Shown: positions 1 through 20,000 of the stretch, in pieces
How positions within the stretch are numbered: the first letter of the stretch is position 1
Layout of the letters: each line of letters begins with the position of its first letter
NCBI GenBank assembly: GCA_002256025.1
Contig: NKIB01013009.1
Coordinates: 45,860-65,859, forward strand
Length of the DNA: 20,000 nucleotides
Direction of reading: 5' to 3'
Source of the DNA: Asterionella formosa
Lineage: Eukaryota
The notes under the pieces: model-generated
Told to the model about the DNA's origin: nothing
What the model saw: only the letters and a program-made list of their open reading frames with translations
Databases searched by the model: none
Made by a program: the position numbers and the translations under genes

Positions 1-1522
1 CAGCAGTACTGGAGGCGCAGGAATGGAAGATGCAACTGTTGCCGAAATTTTGGTGGACTTGGAGGATGACGCAGTCTCCATTTCTTATCGCAACGTGATG
101 TATGTAACTTGTCTTTGTGGTATTTTCAGCGTGGTCATCTCAACTTTAGCGTTAGTGATTATGACGGTGATTGCCAAGCGCCTTGTTCAAGTTGCTTTGA
201 TTTTAACAATCTCACTGAGTTTTGCTTGGGGAACTATTGGAATCGGCGTGTCCCCCCAGAATTTCGTGCCTATTACTGGCATTATCGCGTTAATGTTAAG
301 TGTGGGATACACTTTTATTGTTTGGGATCGAATTCCATTTGCAGCAGCCAATTTACATGCAGGGCTTAGTGGTGTGAGAGCCAATGCGGGGACCGTCGTG
401 GTTGCATTTGCCTTTCAGGGCCTTTCCTTGTTGTGGACGATTTATTTCGCTCATGTATTAGTTGGAATTTACAATGCTTTGGACAAGGGAGATTTGGTCT
501 TGTCAAAGCACATGACAATCTTTGTTTATACTATGTTGGGAATTTCCTACTATTGGACATACCATGTATTGATGGTAAGTACGAAAGGGGACGATGGACT
601 TCATCAAATTCAAGTACTAACCACTTCCTTTCTTTGCCGTATTTCAGAACGTTGTTCAGGTAACGGTGGCTGGCACAGTTGGGAGCTGGTGGTTTACGCC
701 AGATGGTAACCCGTCATGCTTCAAGGAGGCTGTGACGACTTCCTTTTTCTCTGCGATCGTTTTTCGGTTAGGATCCATTTGCTTTGGAAGTTTGCTAATA
801 GGACCAGTACGGTTGCTTCACATGGTGGCTGCCTTTTTCCGTCCAAGCAACGAGGATTCCACCCTATTGTGCATGCACGAATTCCTGAATTGTGTCCGAC
901 AGTGCATTGCCGGAACTTGGGTGGATCAATTGTCCGAGCATTTTAGTCCCTGGGCCTTAACGTACGTTGGATTGTACGGTTATTCATTGTTGGATGCTGG
1001 AGAGCACGCGACAGAACTATTTGAGAAACGAGGCTGGACAATGATTGTATCGGATGACTTGGTTCCAAATGTGCTTCTGATGGTTAGCGTGGTAGTCGGA
1101 GGAGTGACGGGTTGCTTCGGAGTTTTGATCCAGAAGATGGATGAACTTAAGTTTACATCATTTCATGCACCTGCTGCGACCGCTTTTTTGTAAGTCACCA
1201 CCATTGTTATGTTGGCTTTCTTATTCTGCAGGCAACGCTAACACCTTGCGTAATTTTTTTCAGAATCGGCCTCTGTATTGGGTGGGTAGTGACATCTGTA
1301 TTATTCGGTATCATTTGTAGCTCCGTCAATGCTGTAATAGTATGTTTTGCTGGGAACCCCGTGGAATTTAACAAGAATCATCCTGAACTAAGCGAGGAAA
1401 TGAGATCGGCCTGGCGAGAAGTGTGGCCAGGTTGCATGGATGTTGTTGACATGAGAGCGGAGTACGTCGATTTGGCGAATGCACATCATCAGCAAGCGGG
1501 TGAACGGCATCCGCTGTTGTAG
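1..1522 (+). CDS. Choline transporter-like (CTL/SLC44/Pns1 family) membrane protein, 5' end probably outside the window; exons <1-574, 648-1189, 1264-1522
   Basis: Three ORF-track pieces join in frame across two introns: 575-647 (GTAAGT...TACTAAC at 615-621...TTTCAG) and 1190-1263 (GTAAGT...GCTAAC...CAG). The spliced product has CTL motifs RIPFAAANL, YYWT..V..NVVQVTVAGTVGSWWF, GSICFGSL and ALTYVGLYG. The frame is open to the window start. Confidence 0.9.
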
Positions 1523-2311
1523 AACAAGAGAATTTAGGCCGCGGCAGTGTACTGGCTTGGTATGTTCCAGATCGTTGGTAGCTCGCAAGCACCATTGTGA
1601 AATCAAGTCAGTTGGCGCTAAATATTTGGTAGAGTCTTGCAGTGCCGCTTGCATGTTTGAAAGAGGACCATTGAAATTGATTCAGCTTATATTTATTATT
1701 ATAAAACTAATGGTTCAAACCTGAACAACACCAAACTCACAAACGCGGAGCTGCACATCACGGCAAGCGCTCAAACACAGGTGCTTCTACTGCAAACGCT
1801 GCAGTCGTAGCATATTATGACGCTAATGATAGAATATGCTACTCTAAAATGGATTGCAAGTCGCCAATTCTTGGCACCCAACATAGCTAGCTATAGCATA
1901 ACAAGAACTAGCAAACAATTTGCAAGGTCGTGCTTGATGGCGGAGTGCAAGTTTCGTCGACACTGTCTTTTTTAGTCGGCGAAGTAGTTTCGGTGGATTG
2001 CTTACGTAAAATCTATATATGTATCAAAATGACTGCCTTCGTTAGTCAAACCTGATCACAAATGAGTTCAGTGTGACAAGTCATGATCTATGTGAAAGCT
2101 GAGTAATAGCGCTATAGGAGCAAACTATGGGTGCAACTGTGTATTAATCTTCGATTGAGTTGATATGTAGTTTCTATGAATACTTTTACATTCATGGTAA
2201 TGCTTGCTTGTACTGGCGTGTCTGTTCCATTACTCATGTATTATTACATCATTGTTTCCAGTAGTATTGCAGTCTGTCAATTTCTCTGAGATCATTTAGC
2301 TGATTGCTTAG

Positions 2312-3398
2312 TCATGATCGCCAATTGAAGGGGTTCAACATGGGTTCGACCACGACATCGTCCTCGGGGTTTGCATCGAGCAGCACACTGTCGAACTCAG
2401 TCTCTTCCCAATGATTGTACGTAGGGTCATACCAGTCACCGCTTCAGGTCGAATCGAGAAAGGTGAAGTTAGAACGTCATGTCCATTAAATATAGGAAAT
2501 CATCCTTTGGAATGGACTCGTCAATATTATCGACTGACCTTTTGGAACCCATGGAAGACCCCCTAGTCAGAGTTGGGGACATGATAAGCGATGAAATGTC
2601 TTCTTCATTCTGGAATGGATCGACAAAATGAGAAAGCCAAGAATTTTCCTCGTTGACGTCGTCCAAATGTTCCGGAAGCTTTGAGGAGCCTGGTACCGAT
2701 TGGTCCAAATGAAGAACTTCGGGAGTGTTCACCGGTGACGTGGGCATCAAAGTCGGAGTCGCATCTTCGTCACTAGTGTCGTCGTTATTGGGTATCGTCT
2801 TGATCAGTTTGGCACGACGGTAAAAAGTATCATTGCTCATGAGAGGCGAAACAACGCTAAGTTGCGGGCGCTCTTGCTCTGCAGTCGTCTTGTTCGTTGA
2901 TGCTCCACCAATGGTCTTCCGAGAATCTTGCACGGGGTTCGCTTCGCATTTCCGCTTCGGACGGTCATGCCCTGTCAAAGAAGACGAAAGCGTAGGAGCA
3001 TCCTTGTGCTGAGCTCGAATTGTCGGCGCTCCTTCCCTCAATGCCTGACTTGTCTTGGCCATAGCCTTAGCGTCATCAATCTCAACCCAATAGCTTCCAA
3101 AGCCGGTACCTGTGTCGCGTTGCAGAAACCGCCCGGACGGAATCTGAGCTTGCACCAATTCCACGACCTGTCTGGCGACCCTTGCTTTCTCTGCCTTGCT
3201 TAAAGCCAAGTTGTAATCGTTCTTGTAGACCTTGACGTAGTCGCGGAAGACTTTGTTGCCTTCGTGCGAGTTGATACCTCCACCCCGTCCAGCCAGAACA
3301 TCGTTGGGGTGAGGTGTCCTTATTCGTTTGACTGCGCCGTGCGATGCCGAGTTCACAAAGAAATCTCCTGTATGCTGCGGGATGTTCATCATCATCAT
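2312..3398 (-). CDS. DUF6824-domain protein (family expanded in diatoms); probable intron 2442-2538, unspliced ORF ends at 2469
   Basis: PHPNDVLAGRGGGINSHEGNKVFR...K.EK...GRFL...W.EI.D..A..KTSQALRE is the typical DUF6824 signature. Donor AG|GTCAGT, branch CTAAC (2468-2472) and acceptor AAG give an in-frame last exon ending in TGA at 2312-2314. Confidence 0.8.
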
Positions 3399-3690
3399 CG
3401 TTTGTGGTGGTGGGTGGGAGTCTAAGTTGCTCTAAAGTGAGTGATTTGAATGGGGAAAGTTGAAAGTTGTGAAAGAAGATGAACAGCCTTCTCGCGTTGT
3501 TGCGTTGTTCCTGTATATAAACTGTATGTGTTCCTGCTTCTATATGCGTTTTGCTTCGTGTAGCTTTGTGTCACTGTTGTTCGTTTCAACAATTGTGAGC
3601 CGGCAGACAGTGGCAACTGAAAACAACACAGAGAACCAACACACATCAAAAGGAAAGAATTCCATGGCCTTCCTGCAAACAACGACACTT

Positions 3691-3777
3691 ACGTGGCAAA
3701 CGAGAATAGGGTGACGACATCATGACGTTCGTATGAAATTCCTATGATCTGGTTGGACAAGATCCACGTACACGTCA
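3691..3777. promoter_or_regulatory. Cluster of four ACGT cores, two of them TGACGT, upstream of the DUF6824 gene (candidate bZIP sites)
   Basis: ACGT at 3691, TGACGT at 3723-3728, ACGT at 3766 and ACGTCA at 3772-3777, about 300-380 bp upstream of the ATG. Function is inferred only. Confidence 0.3.
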
Positions 3778-4209
3778 TTATTTGACACTATCCTCCTTGA
3801 ACTGGTAATGACTTCTTCGGCCATCTGATGCCATCACCTCCGAAAAGACTATGTGATGACTGTCTTAACAAACGTATGTAGAGATAACGGCATAGGGTTC
3901 GCGCTGAGTTTGCATCATATTTCCATGTGTCACGAATCAGGCAGCTCAGAACGATGCATAGTTCTTGTTGATACTTGTTACATACCGGATATGCATTAAA
4001 CAGAATTAGTCATCATTCTGACACTAATCGACCCCGATGACGGAGTGCCAAAATGCTTTGGTTCGTTTCTTGTAAAATGTATGTAGAGCAATGACACGGA
4101 CACCCCTGGTGTGGAGCAAGCAAGCTTTTCGTTTCATTTCATTTACATACCCGGAGTGGGTGAAATTGCAGTAGCAATACATATCAAAGATAAGAACATC
4201 ACTCAATGC

Positions 4210-4748
4210 TACCGGTACTCGAGCACCGGTGCCTCCCACTGGAGCAGGAGTGCTCGGTACCAGGTACTTGCATACTCCACGTGGTACATACAAGGGAATT
4301 CTACCGGGTGGACCCAGGACCAGGTTCGGTCGTTGAAGTTTCTTCACAGAAAATAATGAAGCCTTGTACATACTTAGGGTTGCAAATAGCATCATATTCA
4401 TACCTATATGTAGTTATGTAGGGTAGTATTCTACCTACCGGTACAGCAAGTTGCGGAAATTTTGATGAACTAAAAGTTTAGCTATTTTTATCCGAGATTA
4501 AATTGTTTCTTTTAAGCAAAATGACTGCATCTTGCACATATCTTAGTTCTATGTGGATTTACGGCACCAGGGTACCCTGGTACCACTTCCGCGAGGGGGT
4601 TCTGGTGCGTGTCGACCGGTACATAGAGCAAAACGACTGCCGGCGTCCTATTTACCGGTACTGTTCCGGTACTTATTTCTTCTAAGTCCTCAGGCATTTG
4701 GCACCTCTCAAAGTTGACAGCAATCGAAAATTAACATACTACCGGTAT
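4210..4748. repeat. Dispersed cluster of TACCGGTA / TACCWGGTA / GGTACC palindromic units
   Basis: Examples: taccggtac (4210), ggtaccaggtac (4256), tacctaccggtac (4432), gggtaccctggtacc (4570), accggtac (4615, 4654), taccggta (4740). Confidence 0.7.
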
Positions 4749-5141
4749 CAATCTTTTGGCGAGAAACAGAATGATGAAATATGCATTGCCTCGGTCCAAT
4801 GCATTCGAAAACTGAATGGATATGCAGCTTGTACTGATCAATCTCACTTTACCGTTGTGCCATCGAAGGCAATCTGAGTAATGCATACTTTCACCTTTCA
4901 GCGTACCTCCAATCGACTTCCGAGCATGCGTGGTCCTAATGGCTACCAGACAGCTACTTGCTTTGACGTTCGTCCATCACAGCACTAATATTTGCGACAG
5001 CATCATCAAGGGGGTAACATACTTATTCCCTTTAATTAAGCAAAATATCCCAAACTTTTCATTAGAAAGTTCCGCTGTAGGTCAATTGCCGTTTGCTCAT
5101 GCTTTACTTAGAATTCCATTGAAGCGTGTGTCCCATTTCAT

Positions 5142-6470
5142 CTAGCCTAGGTTCTCAGCCAGCTCTTTGGTTGCTACAGCTGTCACTCGCACCACTGTCT
5201 GTTTCGTTACCAAAGAAAAGCCAATGTATTCATACTGCCATCCAAATTTTCTACAACACTCTCGCCATGCCCTGAACTCATCTTGTCTCCACGTCGCATG
5301 ACATAGATACTCATCAAACAACAACATTGTCCCTGGAACAACCCGTCCATGAAGATTCTCCAAAATATCCAAAGTCGAAGAATACAAGTCACAGTCAATG
5401 TTGGCATACGCCAAACACTGATCCTTTCGCACAGTCTTCTTGAACTTTGGGATCGAATCACAAAATAATCCTTTGTGAAATCGTACATCACCTTCCAAAA
5501 ATATGGGAACTATTCCACCAGTACTATACGAGCCCTCCGGTTCCCTCCCCCACGCCTGTGGTAGGCCCATAAATGTATCAAACCCATGAATAGTTACACT
5601 CAGTGGCAACAACTCTTGAGTCATACGTAAACTTCGGCCCGAAGCGACACCAAATTCACACACGAGGCCCCCATCGGCGATAAGAGGCGCCGCATGAGAC
5701 AAGGCCAATTCAATCATGTCGCGGGTGCCTCGATGCAAATTAGCTCGATCAACTTTTCGGGTATGCCATCGTACATATCCCCATGAGTCGACCAAACACG
5801 CAATGTGAGCTTCTGATTTGCGAAGTTGCTCCATGAGAAGTTCAGCTTCTTCCGTTTCACCAAGTCGTTCCAAGGCGACAGCAAGGTGGAAGGCAAAAAC
5901 TCGATTTAAAGGCGCTAGCTCAAATGCTTTTCTGTATGCGACTTCAGCCGCCTTTAAACTCCCCCCAGCTGCCTCGATGGAAACCCCCAAGCCATTGTAA
6001 CTCACTGCTGACGGGTAGATATCAATGTCACACGCATCTTGATAGAGACGCATTGACGCTCTTGCATCCCCCAAGGCATCGTGAGATAGATGCGCCAATC
6101 TAACACATGCGTAGGACAAAACAGCACGCACATCGTCTTTGGAGAGGAGAGTGACATGTCCAAACTCGTCGGCGGATTCCAGACAACACTGATAGAGGGT
6201 GGCCGCTTCATGGAACGAAGCAGCTGCTGCTCTGGCTCTTCCTGACTTTTCCATACGCATGCCGAGCTGAAAAGCTCTATCGGCCTCTTGTACAATTGCA
6301 TTGACCGGTGTTTGCTGGTCGTTGATGAAGTCAACGACGGCGGAAGGGTTGAGTGAACGCGCAAAAGTTGATTTGGCAAGGGATGTTCCGAACAAGCGCT
6401 GAAAAGCAAAGGCGGGTGTTGTTGATAGGGCCAGTGCGGCTAGCGATGAGATACTGGTAGAGATTCTCAT
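5142..6470 (-). CDS. TPR-repeat + TylF/MycF-like (class I SAM-dependent) methyltransferase, predicted plastid-targeted, 442 aa
   Basis: The first ATG is at 6470 (the ORF track starts at an upstream TTG). Signal peptide ends AFA-F, followed by an S/T/R-rich stretch. TPR-like helices: SYNGLGVSI...AEVAYRKAFELAP...AFHLAVALERLG. C-terminal motifs: EFGVASGRS, GFDTFMGLP..W, KGLF.DS, NIDCDLYSST, PGTMLLFDEY. Confidence 0.85.
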   Translation of the reverse strand: MRISTSISSLAALALSTTPAFAFQRLFGTSLAKSTFARSLNPSAVVDFINDQQTPVNAIVQEADRAFQLGMRMEKSGRARAAAASFHEAATLYQCCLESADEFGHVTLLSKDDVRAVLSYACVRLAHLSHDALGDARASMRLYQDACDIDIYPSAVSYNGLGVSIEAAGGSLKAAEVAYRKAFELAPLNRVFAFHLAVALERLGETEEAELLMEQLRKSEAHIACLVDSWGYVRWHTRKVDRANLHRGTRDMIELALSHAAPLIADGGLVCEFGVASGRSLRMTQELLPLSVTIHGFDTFMGLPQAWGREPEGSYSTGGIVPIFLEGDVRFHKGLFCDSIPKFKKTVRKDQCLAYANIDCDLYSSTLDILENLHGRVVPGTMLLFDEYLCHATWRQDEFRAWRECCRKFGWQYEYIGFSLVTKQTVVRVTAVATKELAENLG

Positions 6471-6618
6471 GGAGATCAAAGAAAGTTGACGATCACCACA
6501 AACCGTCAATCAGCACGAGTCATTCAACCAACAGGCAACACTGGAGTGGATAGAAATATATGTCATCTGAAGGCAAACGAATTTCAATCTTTATCATGGC
6601 ACAAAGTGCGTGCATGCA

Positions 6619-7089
6619 ACCAGGTACCGGTATCTATTTGCACGCGGAGGCCATGATGACCACATCGCACATGCATGCGTACCGGAACTGGTACTGTGTC
6701 TACCTGGCGGTCCTGGTACCGGTATCCGGTATGCATACCGTTATGCTACCTGGTTCTGTATACCACCATAACCAGGTACCAGGTACTGGTAAAAAAATCA
6801 TGCCGGTACATTGATCTACTGGTATTTATGCATGATAGAGACTAAAACCGGTAGATATGAATGAATCACACTACCAGGTACCAACCAGGTACCGGTACTG
6901 TAAGATTGTATGCCGTTATGACTGGTAAAAAATACCCAGTTGCTGCTGTACATAAGTAACAACGTACCAGGTACCTGGTGGGTACGTATGACGGTGAACA
7001 TTACTACCGGTACCGGTTCTACATAACCCTAGCAAATAGAGGGGAAGGTAAGAAACCCAAGAAATAACAAAGCACGACGCTACCCGGTA
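6619..7089. repeat. Dense cluster of TACC(W)GGTA / TACTGGTA / TACTGTA units in the divergent promoter region
   Basis: Examples: accaggtaccggta (6619), accaggtaccaggtactggta (6771-6791), taccaggtaccaaccaggtaccggtactgta (6872-6902), taccaggtacctgg (6965), taccggtaccgg (7005), tacccggta (7081). Confidence 0.8.
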
Positions 7090-7348
7090 AGCAAGAAGCA
7101 ATTCGGAAACGAAGCAAGGAGCATCAGCAATGCGTTATCTTCGGCGGGGTCGTGTAAACGCTCGTCGCCATTATTATTATTTTCATCCCGAATACATAAT
7201 CAACCGTCGAAGTTGTTGACGATGGCAGGAAACTTGTTCCATACGTCCAGAGTGTAGAGTAGATTCTAGTCCATCGACGATTTCACATTAATATCAGCCC
7301 TTTTTAGTATCTGAAGACTCAGCCAATCTGTGCAATCATATTCGAACA

Positions 7349-8368
7349 ATGGCGAGCACAACGCGACGAAAGAACGGAATGTCCGGGCCTCGCAGTTACA
7401 TGCAAATATCAACGTGGATCTTCCTACCGACATTGGTGACAGAATTCCTCCTCGTTTGTTCCCCGAATCTTCCGCTGGCAGCGTCAATACCAGTCACTCT
7501 AATATTTTGCGTATTGTCGTTTCTTGCTGCGATCTATGGCTACCTTGCAACCGTGACAGATGCCATCGACTCCCACTTGGCCTGTCATTTGCGTGACCAA
7601 GGCGACAGCACACCTGCTGCTGCACCAACAGGGTTCCTGGCTCTCTTTTACCGCCAACCTTCCTTCACGCCAGCTCAAATAGAAGCTGAATCAACCAAAT
7701 ACTGTTGGGTATGCGAAACAAGCGTGGCACAACACTCCATGCATTGCAAGTATTGCAACAAATGCATCTCTAATTTCGATCATCACTGTCAGTGGCTCAA
7801 TACATGTGTCGGCAAGCACAATTATCCATATTTTTACAAAACGCTTTGGTATATTTCGGGAGCGCTGCTGGTTCATGGACTCACGTCGCTGGCGATTGCC
7901 ATTGACATTCTGGCACATGGCACGTCAGAACAACGAGCCAACGATTGGTTAGGGGGCAGCAACCTGAAGGCATTGGTGGTGGCATTCTGTTTTGTTTTTG
8001 TAGCTTTTGACACTGTGGCCTTTTTTTTGATTGCACAGCTACTCTTGTTTCATATTTCCTTGAAACGAGAGAAACTCACGACCTATCAGTTTATTTTAAA
8101 GGACAATCAGCGAAAGCGAGACTTGGCAAAAATTAACGAAACTATTAATTCAAAGCGCATTGTTGCAATTCGGAAGGCCAAGCAAGAAGGCAAGACTTTG
8201 TTATTCTATCAACTAAAATGTGGAAAATATTGTAAGGCATGTGATCCCTTGGTGCTGGAAGTCCCACCCTCGACCCGACAAGAAGCGCCGGAATACAGCA
8301 ATTGCGAAGAAATTGATCTTGAAGAGAGTAAATCAGAGAACGACGAGGACTCTAGGAATGCACTGTAA
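7349..8368 (+). CDS. DHHC-type protein S-acyltransferase (palmitoyltransferase)
   Basis: Cys-rich domain YCWVC...HSMHCKYCNKCISNFDHHCQWLNTCVGKHNY, a 2+2 TM arrangement and TTYQF after the last TM. The N-terminal RKNG.S.P...Q resembles the ZDHHC1/11-like clade. Confidence 0.95.
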   Translation: MASTTRRKNGMSGPRSYMQISTWIFLPTLVTEFLLVCSPNLPLAASIPVTLIFCVLSFLAAIYGYLATVTDAIDSHLACHLRDQGDSTPAAAPTGFLALFYRQPSFTPAQIEAESTKYCWVCETSVAQHSMHCKYCNKCISNFDHHCQWLNTCVGKHNYPYFYKTLWYISGALLVHGLTSLAIAIDILAHGTSEQRANDWLGGSNLKALVVAFCFVFVAFDTVAFFLIAQLLLFHISLKREKLTTYQFILKDNQRKRDLAKINETINSKRIVAIRKAKQEGKTLLFYQLKCGKYCKACDPLVLEVPPSTRQEAPEYSNCEEIDLEESKSENDEDSRNAL

Positions 8369-8899
8369 GAAAAACAATATATGGGGTATTGTAACTATTT
8401 TTTGGCTAAACAGAACTCTTGCACGGCTTCTCTCGTTGTAAATTGTGAGGGTACTTTAGAACTAACATCGTAAATGTTGTGGGGTAAATTATAATTGTGC
8501 ACTTTGGTACACAGTCCAAGCTAGCGAAGTCAACTTGATTGATTACTTAGAATGAAGACATTCAGTCGTTCAGTCGTCTGCCTCGTTTCTATGATGTCCA
8601 ACCATGGGGACTCTTGAATCCTGTCTGATAGCTTCGATCAAGAGACTGAAAACATAATGATTTTTTTGGAATGGAAATATTGGCCGTATAAGTTGTGTCA
8701 TTGTCATGTACTCCGTTATCTATTCTCCTGGTGGGGTTCCTAGTGGAGCTGGACAGAAGGGAAAGAGTTCGAGCTGAGCATTTGTACGAACTCAGAAATT
8801 TGCTCCTCTGGAGTTAGCAAATAGCTAAAGTATAGGACACCACAAAATCAAAACGAGCGATAATATGGCAATCTGTCGTCTACTGGCCCAATGGTACGG

Positions 8900-9830
8900 C
8901 TTCAACTGGTCTAGTGCTGGGGCTTAACAACCATCTATTTAAATAAGCCCTTTGTGTTTTATTCGCAATGTGAACCCGCTAAAGTAAATTTGCGCTTGTA
9001 CTCTTGGCGAATGGGTTGGGTCATTCACTGGAAACGGAAGACAATACTCCTTAGTTGTTTATGATAGGAAATTTGGACTTCATATTGCTTGTTCTTGTCC
9101 TTTGTAAGCTACGTACTGTGTGAGTAACCTACAAAATTACTAGAGCCTCCTCTATACATCGATAGTATTGTTAGGAAACATTTACTCTTATTCTTGACCT
9201 ATTTCTGAGTCACACACTATCATTAATTAGCTTGATGTGATCGATGCTTCAAGATCAATGTTGACACCATGATACCAAATCTTCCATTTTACAACGAATG
9301 AAAATACATTGTACTAGCCATCGCCATTGAGCCCAGCAATCGAGTCATAGTACTAGATAACCATCCAAGGAAGTAAATAAAGTAAATGTGGCTGTGGGTT
9401 GCCAAATTCTAATACCATAATGATTGATAGCACCAACACAACCATGGTATTCATGTCACTTTGTTCTGACTTTATCCATTTCATCTGAAGCGCATTGCAG
9501 CTCCACAAGGCTCTCTTGAAATTTTATTTCTTCAGCAATCGATGGAATTAAAGCAATTATAAACTTCTCAGGTATCTTATATATGGATGTAACTAGTACC
9601 CACATTAAACCCTAACATGCATCAATGTATGTTGAACCTCCCAAAATGCGAAGTGACAAGTACATGATTTCATGAATGGAAAGTGCCCACCTGCTGCTTG
9701 TTCTTCTAGGATGTTCATTCTGTTTATCCGATTTTTAAGCAATCCCTAGACCAATGAGGTTTCTCAATAATTAATAAGTAAATCGAGAAATTCAAAACAT
9801 TTCACGAAAAGTGACAGCATCTGCTGGTCA
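8900..9830 (-). pseudogene. Decayed PIF/Harbinger-type (DDE_Tnp_4) transposase; boundaries approximate
   Basis: Manual translation from 9809 in one frame: FREMF*ISRFTY*LL...LSLRILGGSTYIDAC*G...SIY...IKF...YHGCVGAINHYGIRIWQP (GCVGAI at 9443-9426). Further downstream: LPFP...LRIKTQRAYLNRWLL. These match Harbinger FR.FRMSR.TF, LR.LAGGSY.D, GC.GAIDG and LR..IE.AFG.L..RW.IL. Multiple stop codons; absent from the ORF track. Confidence 0.75.
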
Positions 9831-12158
9831 AAAGTCCTTGTTTCTTCCTTTCGTTAACAAAGTCTGATCAATCAAATTGGTCAACAAAGTAGTGAAGCCA
9901 ACAAATATAACCCAAAACTGCTAGGTTTCTTGCAAAATCACATGTCTTTGCTTGTCTTGCGAGGTACCTATAACAAGGGACGATTTAGTTGTTTTTATTA
10001 GTTCACCCTTTCATGTTTTACCTTGTTCCAACTTACACCTACTACTACCCTTGCGTTCCTTCCAGACAAAATCATGATATTTCTTCATCATGATATGAAT
10101 CATCATCCATGTCAAAATCGTCATGAATGACATGGCTGGAAATGGAGGAAGTACTTACTACAGACCCATGATTGTTACATTTTGAAGGCTGTTCAAATTG
10201 CGTTGTTGGAAGTGGATCAATCATGGGTGCAAAGGAGAATGTTAACATAGGTTTGTGTCTTCGTCTTCCGCAGTGGTGAAATTGGTGGATGATCCATCGG
10301 AAATGAATGCCGAAAGCGGTGCTCCGGATTGAGTGCACTCCTAGTCGGTTGAACTGATGACTGGTTGTAACGACACACTTTGTGCTGGCTGGTTCTTGGT
10401 CCCACTGCTCCATGTTGTAGCCGCCATTTTTGGAAGGAAGAGTGGCTGGTTGTTGGAAGTAGCCAATGTTGATGACTGTTCACTGAAATATGATGATGCT
10501 TAGGGGAATGGCTTAATTGGTTAGCACACCTCATGAGGTGGCAGTTTCGATTCTTGCATTCTCCATCACCCCATCCCTAGGGGTCCAGGGAGTGACAAGG
10601 CTGACAAAGAGACAGATCCCGTTGTACTGTATGGAAAAATAAAACCGGTACTAATTGTTTCCATTCAAGTGGGCACATGTGCAATTATTGTATAGCTTTA
10701 ACATACTATAAAAAATTTATTAACTTTATATTTTAAATCATCCATGTCATACTATATCACCATCACCACACACACCGGACCAGCACAACACAACAGCTCA
10801 GGAAACAGCAATGATAGCCCGCCCTCAAGCTAAATTATGATTGGCTATGCAAATAGCACATCACGTTTTAACAGCAAATTTGAGATTCAAATATCGATTT
10901 TGCTGATAAAAAAATTTGCCTTTTTTCCATGTAATTATCAGAAAAAAGATACTCAGATACTTTTTGACATCATATCCCCAGGTTTACTTATCAGCACGTG
11001 TTTTCATCAGAAATATTATATTTTATCAGCCCTTCAAGGTTAGCTAAGGTAATGCGTAATGAACCTGAACCTCACTCCAGTGGATGTTGCAAAGACGATG
11101 CTTGAGGATGCACAATTCACGTCATCATCCATAGCGGCATATACCGTACAGCTATCGTCAGCCACTGATGTATTCAGGAGTGGTAAATATCATTTTTATA
11201 TATTCATATATTAATAATATTATGCTCCGATGACATGGTTACAGTACCCTAGTACCAGGTACGGGTAGTCTATGTACTATAACGAACGGTAAATAGCTAT
11301 ACCAGGTCAAGGACCAGGTACCTGGTACCAGTTACCAGTAAAAAACTGCCATGACCCATTGAGAATATTTTTGAACTGCCGTGACCCATTGAACGCAGAA
11401 TAACACGTTTTGCAATCAAAACTTAAATAAATATAGATTTTGAGAGTTCTGGCTCCTTCCCGAGCATATAGGCTAGTCAGCCATGTAATTAGTTTGAGAT
11501 TTGGAGCAAGTTGTTCATCTCGATAGATTGCCTGAAATGGTCGATCGACCGAAAAACCATGAAGAACACGGATTAGGGTAAGTTTAAAAGTCACCGCATC
11601 ATATGATATACGACGATCTATATAATGATTTGAACCTTCACCTCATTTGCGACAATAAAGTATATCTTGTCTTGGTATTGACTTCTACGGAGAGATGGCA
11701 AATTATTTAGGCGCACGGCATCATCATGCAAATGCGTTATGTATGATTACGGGTATAACAGGTAGGGAGTACATACCAGGTTTTCATTGCACCTTTCTAA
11801 TAACACGCATGACAAGTGCTTTAACACATGACCTAATCCGTCCTCGAAAATGTATATAAATTTATATACGTTTATCCAGAAAAAAGTATATACTGCCGTG
11901 ACCCAGAAATCGTTAAATCAGAATTCTAACATGACAGCTTGATTGATCGATGCTGCTCTGACACTGGGCGCGCTCTGATAATAAAAAATTATTATATCAT
12001 GTGTGTATTATAACACAAATTATTCTGGTGATCTGCTACATAATATCGTCCGTGCGCTCTGATAATAGAGATATTTTAGATTACTTCTCTGACATAATAT
12101 ATATATTTTTAACTTTAATTTTCAACAGTTAAATTTTCATATCAATGCATCCTCTTGT

Positions 12159-12859
12159 ATGCTATGCCGCCTCTTGTTCATTATATGCATGAGTTCTATA
12201 TATTCATCATCGTCGGTCACTGACCATGTCGACTTTCATCTCATCTCATCTCCTGATGATGATGATGATGATGACATTATGATCACATTGCTACTGTTAA
12301 CAATGTGCTATCCACCAGTAAATAGGACACCATCGTTCAGGGAAAGTTTGACTGTTGATGAGGTCAGAAGAAGAAGTGGCAAAATCCGATGCCACGCACT
12401 ACAGCATCCATTATCGAGTCCATTCTGGACTTGTTCAACAGCAAGCATGATGATGCTCTGATTACCTTGTGTGGGTTTGACCATGCTTCTTTCGAGCTCC
12501 TACACCAGCTGTTCAAACCTTGTTTTTATTCCTTCACTCCCTGTAGGAAAAATACGGATTTCATTGTTAGAAATTCAACAACAAAGAAAGGTCGGCAAAG
12601 ATACCTCTGTTCCATCAGTTGTCTAGCGCTTGGGTTAGCATGGACCAGGACTCATGGTTCCTATATGATTCTTCAGATTATTTTCGGATTAACTCATGGT
12701 TCTTTGAGTGTTTGGTTGAGGTTTTCAAAGCGAATGATTGTAAAAGTACTGCTGACACATGAAGATGCCGTTGTGAGACTGTCTAGTACTGCAGACGAAG
12801 ACACCTTGTTTGCAACCATGATCAATCAGAAATACCCACTTCCAGAAACACCAATCTGA
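12159..12859 (+). pseudogene. N-terminal half of a stramenopile-type Harbinger-like transposase, frameshifted at about 12429 and truncated before the catalytic DDE domain
   Basis: ORFs 12159-12461 and 12389-12859 join as ...RRRSGKI..AL.HP.SSPFW / LFNS..DDALITLCGFDHASF..L...F...KGRQRYL...LALGLAWTRT.GS...LQIIFGLT...LSVWLRF...KYPL. The reading frame ends just before the expected first catalytic D-G motif. Confidence 0.75.
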
Positions 12860-13074
12860 GAAACACCTGGGACAACTATCCTACTGTCCTCATAGTCACT
12901 GACAAACTCATCAGCACCAGTGTCATCTTCATTCTCGTCGTCGTCCTCCTCCTCTTCTTCTGGTTGAGTCTGTTGTTGTTCTTGTTGCTGGTGACGGCGA
13001 CGTTCAAGCAGCCTTGAAGAGGAAGGGAAGCCCTTCCTGGCTGCTCTCCTTTGACTAGAAGAAGATGAAGACAT
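12826..13074 (-). pseudogene. Probable 5' remnant of the element's second, convergent ORF (Ser/Gln/acidic low-complexity N-terminus)
   Basis: The ATG is about 300 bp inside the right TIR. MSSSSSSQRR...QQQEQQQ...EEEEEDDDENEDD looks protein-like and runs into the truncated transposase end. Harbinger elements typically encode a second ORF. Confidence 0.5.
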
Positions 13075-13989
13075 GGCCGAAATCTAAAAGCGATGATGAT
13101 CGATTTATTGAGGAGGTTGATTGATATGTAATGATATGCATACCTATTTTGGCAAGAGCAAGCCATTTTGAGTATGAGCAAGCAAGTCTTAAAATATTCC
13201 TGGAAATTCTATATAGTCATTCATGTCTATACATCTTTTTATATAATGCACTGTTATTTATAACTGTAAAAAATTTGTGTTTGTGTTTGTGTTGACCCAA
13301 ATTTTGGGGTTATGGGTACAACGATTTGTGTTATGATACACATGATATAATAATTTTTTATTATCAGAGCGCGCCCACTATCGAACAAACGGATCCGCAA
13401 TTCGGTAGAATTTACCATTAGTCGGAGGAGTCAAACAAACACCCTAACTCAATGGGTCATGGCAGCTTTTTACTGGTACCTGGTACCAGGTACCAGATAC
13501 CATCGACGGCTTCGTCTCCTCGTCATGCATACCTGTCCCCGTGCGATACGATAAGTATTGTTGCAAAACGATGAGAGAACGTGAGAGATCTTCAGTTGAG
13601 TGTTTCCTTTCTTCTGTTGAGGAAGGTCACCTTGACGATCAATAGCTTCGCTTTGTCGTGCACCACGGTACGTCAATTGAACAGCAAAGAATGAGAGGCG
13701 GTAACTTTGCGTTAACTTCTACCATTGATCGTCCGTTCTGCACACACTGGCATTAATTATTGCTCCGTGGTCACATCATTTTATCGTGTTTCGACGCGGA
13801 TTGATTGTGTTTGCATGCAGGATGTCTTCCAAGCAGCTTTATATCTTGCCTTCGAAACAGGCAGCGAATGCTTCAGTTTTCGGTCGACCATTGTTCCATA
13901 CAACTGCTTCCTTACTGACCCCACTGATGCAATTTTTAGAACTCAGCAATATTATTTTCAGCTTGTAGTGAAAATTCTGAGACGAGCGC

Positions 13990-18210: not shown

Positions 18211-19133
18211 TCACGTGCCAAAAACTTTGTCGTAATCAGGAGCCTCTTCGGGTGGCCCAGCAACTGGATCAATTGTGTTGTTAATCGATGATTGTGCTCC
18301 TGACACCTGGATCGTCGTTTCTTCTACCGAAGTCGAAGCATCTGCGTTGACAGTAGTTTTTCGGATCAATCTAGTGCCGTCAGGCATGACAGTTTCAACG
18401 ATAGTCACGGTTCCAGGCGCTGGGAATGGTTGTCCAACGTCGTAATTGTACACTGGAAGACTTGGTCTAACAAACATAGCGCATAAACCAGAGCAAAAGA
18501 ACAAGATGCACGCTCCAGTTGTCATACCAGCTCCTATAGAGTACTCACAGTAATACGTGTAGCACAGATCAGTTGCAAGCCAGACAAAAGAAAGAGCACT
18601 AAAAACCCCACTGACAATGAGTGATAATCCCAATCCTTTGAAGAAAATTGGCTCATACGTTCGACAAGTGGTAGTGAAGGCCGCAATGGCGGCAATACTC
18701 GCGATGACAGTCGAGATAATGGCCATGGCAAAACCTGATTTCCAGGCGGCATCCCATAGGTTACTCTTTTCTGAATTACTGTACTCAACACAGTACAAAG
18801 AAGAAAAAGAGTCATCGTCAGCCCATGATTGCCATTCTTCGAGGGTTCCTTCACGAAGGAACATCCCAAAACCTACGGTGCCTTCCAGCAACCCAACTGT
18901 GTCGGGAGGGAGAGTAACGAGGACGAACTGGCAAAGGCTCCAGCCTACAACGGAGAACACAACTCCTGTGGAGCTAAAAAGAGCAATCAAAGTAAGCATC
19001 CAGAAATTACCATTGGGGTAATTACTGGATTTTGATAAATCGCGAATCACAATTCGAGTGTTGTGAGCTACAGCTGTATTTACATTTCTTTTTCATTCAA
19101 GCGTCAAATAACTTTTGCTTACCAACATGCCAT
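18211..19133 (-). CDS. Four-TM membrane protein (claudin/PMP22-like topology), about 274 aa; exons 19133-19123 and 19024-18211
   Basis: Four hydrophobic segments with Cys-containing loops and G.G.F in the first loop. The ORF track starts at GTG, but CAAAA-ATG-G at 19133 plus intron 19122-19025 (GTAAGC...TCCAG) gives in-frame MACC-NYPNG. Confidence 0.75.
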
Positions 19134-19291
19134 TTTTGATGACTTTTCTGTGAAAAGTGGAGGATAATACAACAAGTCCAGGATGAAGAACGGCGAGAGA
19201 TCCAAAAGTAAAATAAACGATGTTGTTAACCAAGGCAGATGATAAAGTATGAGAAGGCCCCAGGCAAGACTTCACTTCCCAGTACCTGGTA

Positions 19292-20000
19292 CCACTTAAA
19301 AACTGTAAGCCACCGCTACGGCCACTTTTGAACTGTAAGCCACCGCTAAACGGAGTAAACGCACGGTTTGAACTTATTTTACAAGATACGCTATTTATTG
19401 TCACGAACGAGTTGTTCAGATTTATATAGCGAGTAAATACTTCCGTACTTGTATTGTTGCATTGTGTACATTGTTAATTAGGTATTATCGCCCAAAGGTT
19501 GCTGTCGACGTGAAATTGCGAAAATTGGATATTTTCACGTTTACTCGATTGAGCAAGCATCACCTTTTATATACGTATTCAGCTATGAGAATATTCCTCC
19601 GCTAGAAAACTAATTTAGTATCCTCTAAAATTTATTTAATATGGCTACGACGTCATTGCGCTTTCGCTCGTGCGCCATAATAAAGAGATAAATTCACTAA
19701 TGGAAAACGTCAAATAGGAATTCCTGGCGCGCCCGAATTATGAGTACAAAAATTAAATGCAAACACACAACAGTCACCCATCACCCATCACAATACCAAC
19801 ATCATGACCTCGAAAGCGCCTCGACAAGGCAATGTCTTGCCTCGAAAGAAATTGTCTCCTGAAGAGTTGGTCAGTGTTCAGATTTGTCTTAACAATGTGA
19901 TTAGGGAGCTAGAAGCTAAGAAGGCTAACAATGGTGGAAAAATGCCTTATGGTGCTATTTCTAGGACAGTATCAGCTAAGCAATGCATTTTCCCTTGGAT
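19292..20000 (+). mobile_element. Left end of a TA-flanked TIR transposon related in end structure to the 11335 MITE; continues beyond the window
   Basis: TA|CCACTTAAAAACTGTAAGCCACCGCTA, with the 18-bp AACTGTAAGCCACCGCTA repeated at 19301 and 19331 (same offsets as in the MITE). An AT-rich leader and an open ORF follow. The other end is not visible. Confidence 0.7.
19804..20000 (+). CDS. 5' part of an ORF inside the element, candidate pogo/Tc1-like transposase
   Basis: 65 codons open to the window end: MTSKAPRQGNVLPRKKLSPEELVSVQICLNNVIRELEAKKANNGGKMPYGAISRTVSAKQCIFPW. The GK.PYGAI...PW segment looks HTH-like. The catalytic domain is not visible. Confidence 0.55.
   Translation, partial: MTSKAPRQGNVLPRKKLSPEELVSVQICLNNVIRELEAKKANNGGKMPYGAISRTVSAKQCIFPW

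What the first reader, a model, noticed from the sequence alone, without database searches (positions are those of the whole stretch)
6619..7089. GGTACC-type arrays may be stacked transposon excision footprints that create their own landing pads
Seen: intergenic DNA at 4210-4748, 6619-7089, 11240-11334, 13477-13496 and 19283-19291 is rich in TA-CCAGG-TA, TA-CCTGG-TA, TA-CCGG-TA, TA-CTGG-TA and TA-CWG-TA (6896, 11240). These units are often chained through a shared TA and are rare in exons. All three TA-flanked element ends found here begin CCA or end TGG and sit directly against such units. Known: Tc1/mariner excision leaves TA + a few terminal bases + TA (Sleeping Beauty leaves TA-CWG-TA). 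Inference: joining the non-complementary CC/CCA overhangs of CCA...TGG elements would give TA-CCGG-TA or TA-CC(A/T)GG-TA. Re-insertion into a footprint TA would grow a 6-7 bp unit array, giving a self-amplifying target site and a record of past transposition.
Basis: partly seen in the sequence, partly recalled or inferred. Interest (0 to 1): 0.8.

Follow-up and report, generated by a model that had tools for sequence, protein, structure and literature searches.

The report
Transposon landing pads in diatom promoters
Short GGTACC-type repeats crowd the gene-upstream DNA of a freshwater diatom and are the favoured insertion sites of a very abundant Harbinger-type jumping gene, but nothing shows that the repeats are scars left when that element leaves.

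Summary
GGTACC occurs 19 times against 1.9 expected. TACCGGTA with up to 1 mismatch occurs 23 times against 3.3, and TACCWGGTA 23 times against 2.3. These are the most over-represented words in the window. They sit in five intergenic stretches on the 5' side of ORFs. They are near-absent from ORFs, transposon interiors and two other intergenic stretches.

All three element ends do abut such units. However, the elements are not Tc1/mariner. The 11335-13476 element is a deletion derivative of a PIF/Harbinger-type (DDE_Tnp_4) transposon with a 2-bp TA duplication. It interrupts a pre-existing six-unit 7-bp array. Five of 8 element ends, here and in metagenome copies, abut a unit, against 1.7% of background TA steps.

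So the "landing pad" part is supported. The "excision footprint" origin is not shown. No empty allele was seen. Canonical-type footprints of CCA...TGG ends are not enriched. The one family member whose excision I read about, mPing, excises precisely (PMC2836001).

Best reading: pre-existing promoter-proximal motif arrays that serve as the extended palindromic target of a TA-inserting Harbinger family.

The parts
4210..4748 (.). Array region A: dispersed TACCGGTA (4 exact), GGTACC and CCWGGTA units. It lies between the DUF6824 gene and the 3' end of the TPR-methyltransferase gene.
   Evidence: 88 motif-covered bases in interval 3399-5141
6617..7089 (.). Array region B (the finding). It is the densest cluster, with about 20 units, partly chained through shared TA. 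It lies in the divergent upstream region between ORF 5142-6509(-) and ORF 7349-8368(+).
   Evidence: 136 motif-covered bases of 839; an exact 16-mer occurs twice, at 6617 and 6882 (D3)
11240..11334 (.). Array C, the left flank of TE1. Its last three 7-bp units are 11314-11334 (CCAGGTA CCTGGTA CCAGTTA). The TA at 11333-11334 is one copy of the target duplication.
   Evidence: (period 7, 5.9 copies)
11335..13476 (+). TE1, a non-autonomous deletion derivative of a PIF/Harbinger-type transposon. Its 29-nt terminal inverted repeats are 11335-11363 and 13448-13476, beginning CCAGTA. Subterminal direct repeats are at 11344-11362 and 11374-11392. It carries a truncated transposase ORF at 12362-12859 and an internal deletion point at 12841/12842.
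   Evidence: (I2, D13); loose ends at 12841/12842 in all 4 runs and very high summed depth
13477..13502 (.). Array D, the right flank of TE1. It starts with TA (13477-13478, the second copy of the duplication). Units CCTGGTA CCAGGTA CCAGATA (13479-13499) follow. It lies about 490 nt upstream of the CAP-Gly ORF start at 13990.
   Evidence: (period 7, 4 copies)
19276..19291 (.). Array E: CCCAGTA CCTGGTA directly before TE2. It lies about 230 nt upstream of ORF 18211-19050(-).
19292..20000 (+). TE2, the left end of a related element that runs off the window. It begins CCACTT. Two 27-nt subterminal repeats lie 30 nt apart (19292-19318 and 19322-19348). It has the same end architecture as TE1.
   Evidence: D10; one search gives about 60% identity over 80 nt to the TE1 end at E 0.083, which is weak; very high depth
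5142..6509 (-). TPR plus TylF-like methyltransferase ORF. By my reading, its likely ATG is at about 6470. Its upstream region holds array B.
7349..8368 (+). DHHC palmitoyltransferase ORF. Its upstream region holds array B.

Best explanation
The GGTACC-type units are a short palindromic word family. The half-sites are WACC and GGTW, abutting (TACCGGTA), one base apart (TACC-W-GGTA) or overlapping in TA (GGTACC). They form clusters and 6-7-bp tandem arrays in gene-upstream DNA of this freshwater diatom.

A very abundant PIF/Harbinger-type (PHIS superfamily) transposon family has CCA...TGG ends and a 2-bp TA duplication. It uses the GG|TA|CC steps of these arrays as its extended palindromic target. 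The arrays therefore act as landing pads and collect insertions.

The arrays exist before the insertions. Most likely they are a promoter-proximal protein-binding or structural motif that grows by slippage. They are not the product of excision.

Shown:
- the enrichment and placement of the units;
- the transposase family;
- the TA duplication;
- insertion into an existing array;
- the association of element ends with units.

Inferred:
- that the association reflects target choice by the transposase;
- that the arrays have a promoter role;
- that they grow by slippage.
For: 1. Enrichment and clustering.

2. Placement: the arrays lie only in the five intergenic stretches on the 5' side of an ORF (7.0% of bases covered). 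Intervals 1194-2468 and 8369-10534 have 0 and 6 covered bases. Transposon interiors have 0.4%.

3. Transposase family: the TE1 ORF finds 11 longer proteins, and all 11 carry PF13359. A direct scan places DDE_Tnp_4 at 211-372 of the 400-aa relative. The window ORF matches its residues 68-203 at 96%.

4. Insertion into an existing array: the flanks of TE1 read as three 7-bp units on each side in one register, with TA on both sides. The empty site would be an unbroken six-unit array.

5. Ends and units: 5 of 8 ends abut a 7-mer within 1 mismatch of TACCWGG, against 1.7% of 2171 background TA steps. My own binomial arithmetic gives about 1e-7. Two of those five ends are on independent metagenome contigs (L051, L075).

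6. Other copies: in contigs of 4 runs, other copies keep matching the window for 15-26 nt into the arrays. The loose ends and joints lie at 11310-11318 and 13494-13502. Some contigs join a right end through array to a left end (tables 5c and 7).

7. Literature: PIF/Harbinger elements are reported to have an extended target preference of 9-15 bp, and mPing excises precisely (PMC2836001 passages). PHIS groups differ mainly in short palindromic targets such as A|AT|T and C|TNA|G (PMC4482050 passages).

8. Precedent for a promoter motif: TACCGGTA is a predicted promoter motif (M94) in another stramenopile, Phytophthora infestans (PMC3597505 passages).

9. Boundary letters: arrays start with AA instead of TA at 6618, 6770, 6883, 6846 and 10643. 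This fits a WACC half-site better than strict TA-bounded scars.
Against: - No binding protein, transcript start or cross-species conservation was tested, so the promoter-motif part rests on placement in one 20-kb window and on a distant precedent.
- The central base of TACC-N-GGTA is A or T in 9 cases and C in 1 (7081). The fillers CCGG, CCAGG and CCTGG are exactly what 2-3 terminal bases of CCA...TGG ends would give. A pure binding-site model does not predict either point, and the footprint model does.
- 3 of 5 metagenome ends (L063, L075 left, L053) abut ordinary sequence (3-4 mismatches), so the preference is not absolute.
- More than 20 units in 470 bp is extreme for a binding-site cluster.
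- The proportion of array-flanked copies genome-wide is unknown. No genome is held, and one search shows only the best-supported rows.
Confidence: 0.5

Rival explanations
1. First reader's model. The units are excision footprints (TA + 2-3 terminal bases of each end + TA). Transposons with CCA...TGG ends left them, and re-insertion into footprint TAs stacks them into arrays that amplify themselves.
For: - The enriched fillers are exactly CCGG, CCAGG, CCTGG and CTGG. These are the combinations obtainable from CC/CCA plus GG/TGG.
- The central base is A or T in 9 of 10 cases.
- The elements are extremely abundant and sit in the TA steps.
- Isolated single TACCGGTA units in region A look like single events rather than slippage.
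- One contig form of about single-copy depth joins 11337 to 13470 with one extra letter. Almost the whole element is missing there, but the terminal 5-7 bases of both ends remain between arrays (table 5c).
- Tc1/mariner excision sites retain the first or last 2-4 transposon bases between TAs. The Sleeping Beauty footprint (3 bases) was read in PMC6943129. That Tc1 (2-base stagger) leaves TACATGTA is recalled, not checked.
Against: - The transposase is DDE_Tnp_4 (PIF/Harbinger), not Tc1/mariner.
- mPing of that superfamily excised precisely in 109 of 110 events (PMC2836001).
- The footprints expected by the Sleeping Beauty rule, TACCATA and TATGGTA, occur 1 and 0 times, and TACCATGGTA 0 times.
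- The CCA overhangs are not complementary, so the proposed products need an ad hoc join.
- Five units start with AA rather than TA.
- TE1 sits in an array that already existed.
- No empty allele with an added unit was seen.
- The 11337-to-13470 form cannot be assigned to this locus, and it keeps 5-7 bases of each end rather than 2-3.
Confidence: 0.15
2. The arrays are functionless, hairpin-prone 6-7-bp microsatellites. They arise and grow by replication slippage where selection is relaxed, and the transposons merely prefer them.
For: - Period-7 tandem arrays exist.
- 2 of 5 array stretches fold as DNA hairpins far better than shuffles, with z of -3.6 and -3.7.
- One X1 contig differs by a 3-base insertion that restores three perfect units at 6883 (table 4). 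Its locus is uncertain.
- DNA transposons that target microsatellites are known: MuTAnT in TA repeats (PMC4486113 abstract).
Against: - Many units are isolated single 8-mers separated by 40-200 nt of unrelated sequence, which slippage does not produce.
- The arrays are absent from 3.5 kb of other non-ORF DNA and from AT-rich transposon interiors, which should be just as free to slip.
- Three of the 5 stretches fold no better than shuffles.
Confidence: 0.2
3. The arrays next to the elements are part of the elements. The inverted repeats would then be 47 nt or longer and end in GGTACC repeats, so each insertion would bring its own arrays.
For: - The inverted repeat of TE1 extends 18 nt beyond CCAGTA with one mismatch (47 nt at 96%, I2).
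- Other copies match the window through 15-26 nt of array.
Against: - On metagenome contigs the flanks diverge immediately outside TA|CCAGTA, in L063, L075 left and L053.
- An insertion into a palindromic array gives apparent extended inverted repeats by itself. Only the middle base (A or T) of each unit needs to agree, and it agrees in 2 of 3 units (my reading).
- Regions A and B hold arrays but no element and no end relic at E<0.01.
- No direct repeat flanks the longer version.
Confidence: 0.05

Closest known systems
PIF/Harbinger elements and their Tourist MITEs (for example Ping/Pong/mPing of rice)
   Same: - DDE_Tnp_4 transposase.
- Terminal inverted repeats with subterminal repeats.
- Abundant short deletion derivatives: a 735-bp copy on L075 and the common joint 11961 to 13376.
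- Extended palindromic target preference (PMC2836001 passages).
   Different: - The duplication here is 2-bp TA, not 3-bp TWA.
- The target is the GC-containing CCWGG|TA|CCWGG step of a tandem array, not an AT-rich 9-mer.
- A second Myb-like ORF was not identified in the truncated copy.
Other PHIS groups: ISL2EU (AT), Spy (none), Pangu (ANT), NuwaI (CWG), NuwaII (C|TNA|G)
   Same: - Same transposase superfamily.
- These groups are told apart by short palindromic targets (PMC4482050 passages).
- ISL2EU also makes a 2-bp duplication.
   Different: None of the six listed groups has a TA duplication in a G|TA|C context. I did not place the transposase on a tree against those groups, and the paper's supplementary tables were not read.
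MuTAnT (Mutator-like) and TAFT elements that target TA microsatellites
   Same: A DNA transposon family whose copies are mostly flanked by a variable number of tandem repeat units. In other words, a simple repeat serves as the landing pad (PMC4486113 abstract).
   Different: - Different superfamily (MULE).
- A dinucleotide TA repeat rather than CC(W)GGTA units.
- No claim there that the elements build the repeat.
Tc1/mariner excision footprints (Sleeping Beauty TACAGTA/TACTGTA)
   Same: TA-bounded short inserts derived from element termini (PMC6943129 passage). The units here are TA-bounded and could be spelled from the ends CC/CCA and GG/TGG.
   Different: - The transposase here is not Tc1/mariner.
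- The canonical analogue (TACCATA or TATGGTA) is not enriched.
- No excision product was observed.
Promoter motif M94 (TACCGGTA) of Phytophthora infestans, listed with its near-twin M93 (TACATGTA)
   Same: The identical 8-bp palindrome, over-represented in promoters of another stramenopile and listed among 'high-confidence' predicted transcription-factor sites (PMC3597505 passages).
   Different: - Oomycete, not diatom.
- Single sites rather than chained arrays.
- In the passages I read, M94 is not stated to be one of the six motifs tested experimentally.
- No binding factor is named.

Membership tests
   The TE1 ORF is 96% identical to part of a transposase with DDE_Tnp_4 (PF13359). All 11 of 11 longer homologues carry that domain.
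   TA lies on both sides of TE1 (11333-4 and 13477-8), and TA lies before TE2. On L075 the two sides read TA and TC.
   TACCATA occurs 1 time and TATGGTA 0 times in 20 kb. TACWGTA occurs 4 times against 1.46 expected, not significant.
PIF/Harbinger (PHIS) superfamily | DDE_Tnp_4 transposase | tested here: met
   The window copy keeps only residues 68-203 and lacks the catalytic domain.
PIF/Harbinger (PHIS) superfamily | Terminal inverted repeats | tested here: met
   29-nt repeats, 28 of 29 complementary.
PIF/Harbinger (PHIS) superfamily | 3-bp TWA duplication (PIF/Harbinger group proper) | tested here: not met
   The 3 bases flanking TE1 are TTA on the left and TAC on the right. Only TA is shared.
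PIF/Harbinger (PHIS) superfamily | Second ORF for a Myb/SANT-like DNA-binding protein | tested here: inconclusive
   No Pfam family reaches its cut-off for the other ORFs of the truncated copy. The full-length element was not available.
PIF/Harbinger (PHIS) superfamily | Extended palindromic target preference | tested here: met
   5 of 8 ends abut TACCWGG within 1 mismatch, against a 1.7% background.
ISL2EU group of PHIS | AT duplication in an A|AT|T target | tested here: not met
   The duplication is TA in a G|TA|C context. The feature is taken from PMC4482050 passages.
Transposon excision footprints | The empty allele carries extra bases, derived from the element ends, relative to the never-occupied site | not testable with these tools
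   No genome is held. Contig tables show no empty allele assignable to a locus. The indel rows for run X2 (44 gap letters over 1-9643) were not listed.
Transcription-factor binding-site cluster | Promoter-proximal placement | tested here: met
   All five array regions lie on the 5' side of an ORF, and there are none in two other intergenic intervals. The data are one window, ORF-based and classified after the fact.
Transcription-factor binding-site cluster | Conservation at orthologous promoters, and a binding protein | not testable with these tools
Relatives of the DHHC gene at 72% identity are known only as proteins.

The most novel reading that the evidence does not exclude
The arrays are built by the transposons themselves. 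Imprecise excision, or end-retaining deletion, of a TA-inserting Harbinger-type family leaves CC(W)GG-TA. That unit recreates the family's own preferred GG|TA|CC target. Promoter regions would then accumulate self-amplifying landing pads that also record past transposition. This would be a positive feedback between footprint and target choice that, as far as I recall, has not been described for any transposon. My searches did not turn it up.
Probability: 0.15. Interest if true: 0.85.

Novelty: new variant of a known kind. Interest (0 to 1): 0.5.

Why it matters
If the best reading holds, this diatom carries a PHIS-superfamily lineage with a target not among the six groups listed in PMC4482050 (TA within CCWGG|TA|CCWGG). 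It also has a genome-wide class of promoter-proximal heptamer arrays that channel a very abundant transposon into gene-upstream DNA.

That would be a natural system for studying three things:
- how a two-protein Harbinger transposase reads an extended target;
- how insertions are steered towards or away from promoters;
- what the GGTACC/TACCGGTA word does in stramenopile promoters, where the same 8-mer was predicted as a regulatory motif in Phytophthora.

If the footprint model were right instead, it would be a new mechanism for the birth of simple repeats and for the self-reinforcement of insertion hotspots.

Tried and rejected
- **Whole genome.** None is held, so flanks could not be tabulated genome-wide.
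- **Metagenome scan for element ends.**
  - The scan used a 17-letter end motif and returned 81 loci.
  - By my reading are chance matches in unrelated, mostly bacterial-looking DNA.
  - Only 8 loci (L025, L051, L053, L056, L062, L063, L075, L078) belong to the element family.
  - Those 8 loci give only 5 usable ends.
- **Other collections.** A 31-letter degenerate end pattern found 0 matches in genome contigs and 0 in viral contigs.
- **Reads.**
  - No joint that removes TE1 cleanly was listed.
  - The X2 contig over 1-9643 differs by 25 letters and 44 gap letters. The places of its gaps were among the unlisted rows, so unit-step polymorphism could not be tested.
  - X2 contigs reaching 16 and 24 letters into TE1 from either flank fall below the tool's 31-letter rule, so they do not count as bridging.
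  - The +GGT form at 6883 and the 11337-to-13470 form cannot be assigned to this locus, because several array loci map there.
- **Decayed element ends in regions A and B.** Nothing below E 0.01; the best hit is 13 nt at E 32.
- **Longer shared elements carrying the arrays.** Only the arrays themselves match between regions.
- **Palindromic TA-bounded fillers in general.** Only the CC(W)GG/CTGG set is enriched.
- **Pfam on the other element ORFs.** Nothing above cut-off.
- **Literature.**
  - 'GGTACC + diatom + motif + promoter' gave 5 papers, none relevant by title or abstract.
  - 'TACCGGTA' anywhere gave 509 papers. I judged the 20 listed irrelevant from their titles and abstracts.
  - 'ACCGGT + diatom + cis-regulatory' gave 5 papers, one useful.
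  - No paper on such arrays in diatoms was found by these three searches.
- **Earlier notes of this scan.** Nothing on this genome or on look-alike DNA.

Full report
**What the window is.**
- The ORFs encode a choline-transporter-like protein, a DUF6824 protein, a TPR/TylF-type methyltransferase, a DHHC palmitoyltransferase and a CAP-Gly protein.
- The DHHC protein finds 95 relatives. The named ones are almost all diatoms, the best named hit being Seminavis robusta at 44% identity. The identical sequence occurs only in assemblies of public runs.
- Runs that hold the stretch are labelled algae, freshwater or lake-water metagenomes.
- I therefore treat the window as nuclear DNA of a freshwater diatom. 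No whole genome is held.

**Check of the observation.** The units are real and far above chance. Expectations come from 200 dinucleotide-preserving shuffles, and 0 of 200 shuffles reach any of the first three observed counts.

| Word | Observed | Expected |
|---|---|---|
| GGTACC | 19 | 1.87 |
| TACCGGTA, <=1 mismatch | 23 | 3.30 |
| TACCWGGTA, <=1 mismatch | 23 | 2.31 |
| TACWGTA | 4 | 1.46 |

- In an unbiased ranking, words of this family fill the top of the 6-, 7- and 8-mer lists.
- Among all TA-X-TA fillers, only CCGG (8), CCAGG (6), CCTGG (3) and CTGG (4) stand out.
12 of 200 shuffles reach the observed 4.
- Around the half-site GGTA, the conserved neighbours are C at -2 (61 of 78 sites in the array regions) and C at +4 (48 of 78). 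The common core is therefore C-N-GGTA-C.
- 78 of the window's 178 GGTA/TACC half-sites lie in 1223 bases.

**Where the units lie.**
- Motif words cover 7.0% of the bases in the five intergenic stretches that lie on the 5' side of at least one ORF.
- They cover 0.5% of ORF bases, 0.4% of transposon interiors and 0.2% of the remaining non-ORF DNA.
- Intervals 1194-2468 and 8369-10534 have 0 and 6 covered bases.
- This classification is based on ORFs only and was made after seeing the data.
- It does show that the units are not a general property of non-coding DNA here.

**The elements.**
- The stretch 11335-13476 has 29-nt terminal inverted repeats that begin CCAGTA.
- It has 19-nt subterminal repeats 30 nt apart, and TA on both sides.
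- A second element starts at 19292 with CCACTT, after TA, and has the same end architecture.
- The ORF at 12362-12859 finds 11 longer proteins, all with Pfam PF13359.
- A direct scan places DDE_Tnp_4 at residues 211-372 of the 400-aa relative. The window ORF is 96% identical to its residues 68-203.
- The window copy is therefore a non-autonomous deletion derivative of a PIF/Harbinger-type element, not a Tc1/mariner element.
- Contigs of all four runs carry extra sequence at 12841/12842, consistent with a longer parent.
- Summed contig depth over the two elements is hundreds to over a thousand times that of the neighbouring single-copy bins. The tool warns that this is not a copy number, so I say only that the family is very abundant.
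- The 2-bp TA duplication differs from all six PHIS groups listed in PMC4482050 (passages read). Those are TWA, AT, none, ANT, CWG and C|TNA|G.

**Elements and arrays.**
- The three 7-bp units left of TE1 (11314-11334) and the three to its right (13479-13499) are in one register. Removing the element and one TA would leave an unbroken six-unit array.
- That array therefore existed before this insertion.
- In the window, 52 of 1086 TA steps have CC(W)GG on at least one side, and both independent insertions use such steps.
- A metagenome scan for the end motif returned 81 loci. By my reading, 8 belong to the family and give 5 further ends.
- Over all 8 ends, the 7 bases next to the duplication differ from TACCWGG by 1, 0, 0, 1, 3, 4, 0 and 4 letters.
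- Only 1.7% of 2171 background TA steps are within 1 mismatch. Five of 8 against 1.7% is about 1e-7 by my own binomial arithmetic.
- In the laid contigs, other copies keep matching the window for 15-26 nt into the arrays. Three contig forms join a right end through array to a left end (tables 5c and 7). Two copies can therefore share one array.
- The preference is not absolute, because 3 of the 5 metagenome ends abut ordinary sequence.

**Are the arrays footprints?** Nothing I could run shows it, and several points speak against it.
1. The one superfamily member whose excision I read about, mPing, excises precisely: 109 of 110 events in yeast, and 'usually perfect' in rice and Arabidopsis (PMC2836001 passages).
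2. By the Sleeping Beauty rule (three terminal bases between two TAs; PMC6943129 passage), CCA...TGG ends should leave TACCATA or TATGGTA. These occur 1 and 0 times, and TACCATGGTA never. The proposed CC(W)GG products need an ad hoc joining of non-complementary overhangs.
3. Five units begin with AA rather than TA.
4. Regions A and B contain no decayed element ends and share nothing beyond the units themselves.

Some points favour the model.
- The enriched fillers are exactly those that can be spelled from CC/CCA plus GG/TGG.
- The central base is A or T in 9 of 10 cases.
- Isolated single TACCGGTA units look like single events.
- One contig form of roughly single-copy depth lacks almost the whole element but keeps the terminal 5-7 bases of each end between arrays (table 5c). 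It cannot be assigned to a locus.

The decisive data were out of reach. These are empty alleles and unit-step polymorphism. The X2 contig over 1-9643 differs by 44 gap letters whose positions were not listed.

**What the arrays may be instead.**
- Their restriction to gene-upstream DNA, the palindromic half-site structure and the AA-started variants fit a protein-binding promoter word.
- The identical 8-mer TACCGGTA is listed as the 'high-confidence' predicted promoter motif M94 in the stramenopile Phytophthora infestans, next to TACATGTA (M93) (PMC3597505 passages). I did not see M94 among the six motifs tested there.
- From memory, TACATGTA is also the classical Tc1 footprint, so that precedent is itself ambiguous.
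- Tandem growth by slippage is plausible. Two of 5 array stretches fold as DNA hairpins with z below -3.5, and three do not.
- A transposon family that targets a simple repeat has a precedent in MuTAnT, which targets TA microsatellites (PMC4486113 abstract).

**Verdict.**
The arrays are landing pads, but for a Harbinger-type family and not Tc1/mariner. Their origin as excision scars is unsupported, and the precise excision reported for mPing argues against it.
- My odds: 0.5 for pre-existing promoter-proximal arrays used as an extended target; 0.2 for functionless slippage-prone repeats that the elements prefer; 0.15 for the footprint model; 0.05 for arrays being part of the element ends. The rest is unknown.
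- The combination of a TA-duplicating PHIS lineage with a heptamer-array target is, as far as my searches and the passages I read go, a new variant of known kinds.

Noticed in passing
window 11960-12015 and 13327-13382: A 56-nt internal inverted repeat (88%) lies inside TE1. A joint 11961 to 13376 that removes the 1414 nt between the arms is seen in 9 X1 contigs and in X2, X7 and X8. The family therefore has a common short MITE-like form. A whole copy of about 735 bp lies on L075.
   Followed up: partly
window 10006-11339: This stretch has 20-36 times the summed contig depth of single-copy bins in X1. Loose ends at 10501 in X8 suggest another repeated element directly left of array C. Its ORFs (10072-10413-, 10217-10534-) have no Pfam family.
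   Followed up: no
window 4476-4510: X1 contigs break here, and depth rises about 17-fold for the bin 4003-4669. A 1-base deletion at 4510 is seen in 7 X1 contigs. This looks like a short dispersed repeat inside array region A.
   Followed up: no
window 6617-6632 and 6882-6897: The exact 16-mer CAACCAGGTACCGGTA occurs twice, 265 nt apart (D3). TAAAACCGGTA occurs at 6843 and 10640. Units with an AA left boundary recur, which suggests a word longer than the TA-bounded unit.
   Followed up: partly
window 4210-4262; L051 4-17; L075 189-204: Other TA-adjacent palindromes sit beside the units. CTCGAG next to TACCGGTA occurs both in the window and on L051 as a 14-nt exact match. TTTACTCCGGAGTAAA occurs on L075. 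They were not enriched in the window-wide filler test.
   Followed up: partly
window 2-1193: The choline-transporter-like gene is read in two overlapping frames (2-709 and 666-1193), which implies a short intron or a frameshift near 666-709.
   Followed up: no
literature (PMC3597505): The two abundant palindromic Phytophthora promoter motifs TACATGTA and TACCGGTA both have the form TA + 2 bases + their complement + TA. From memory, that is the form of Tc1-type 2-base-stagger footprints. Whether those 'motifs' are partly transposon scars may be worth a look.
   Followed up: no
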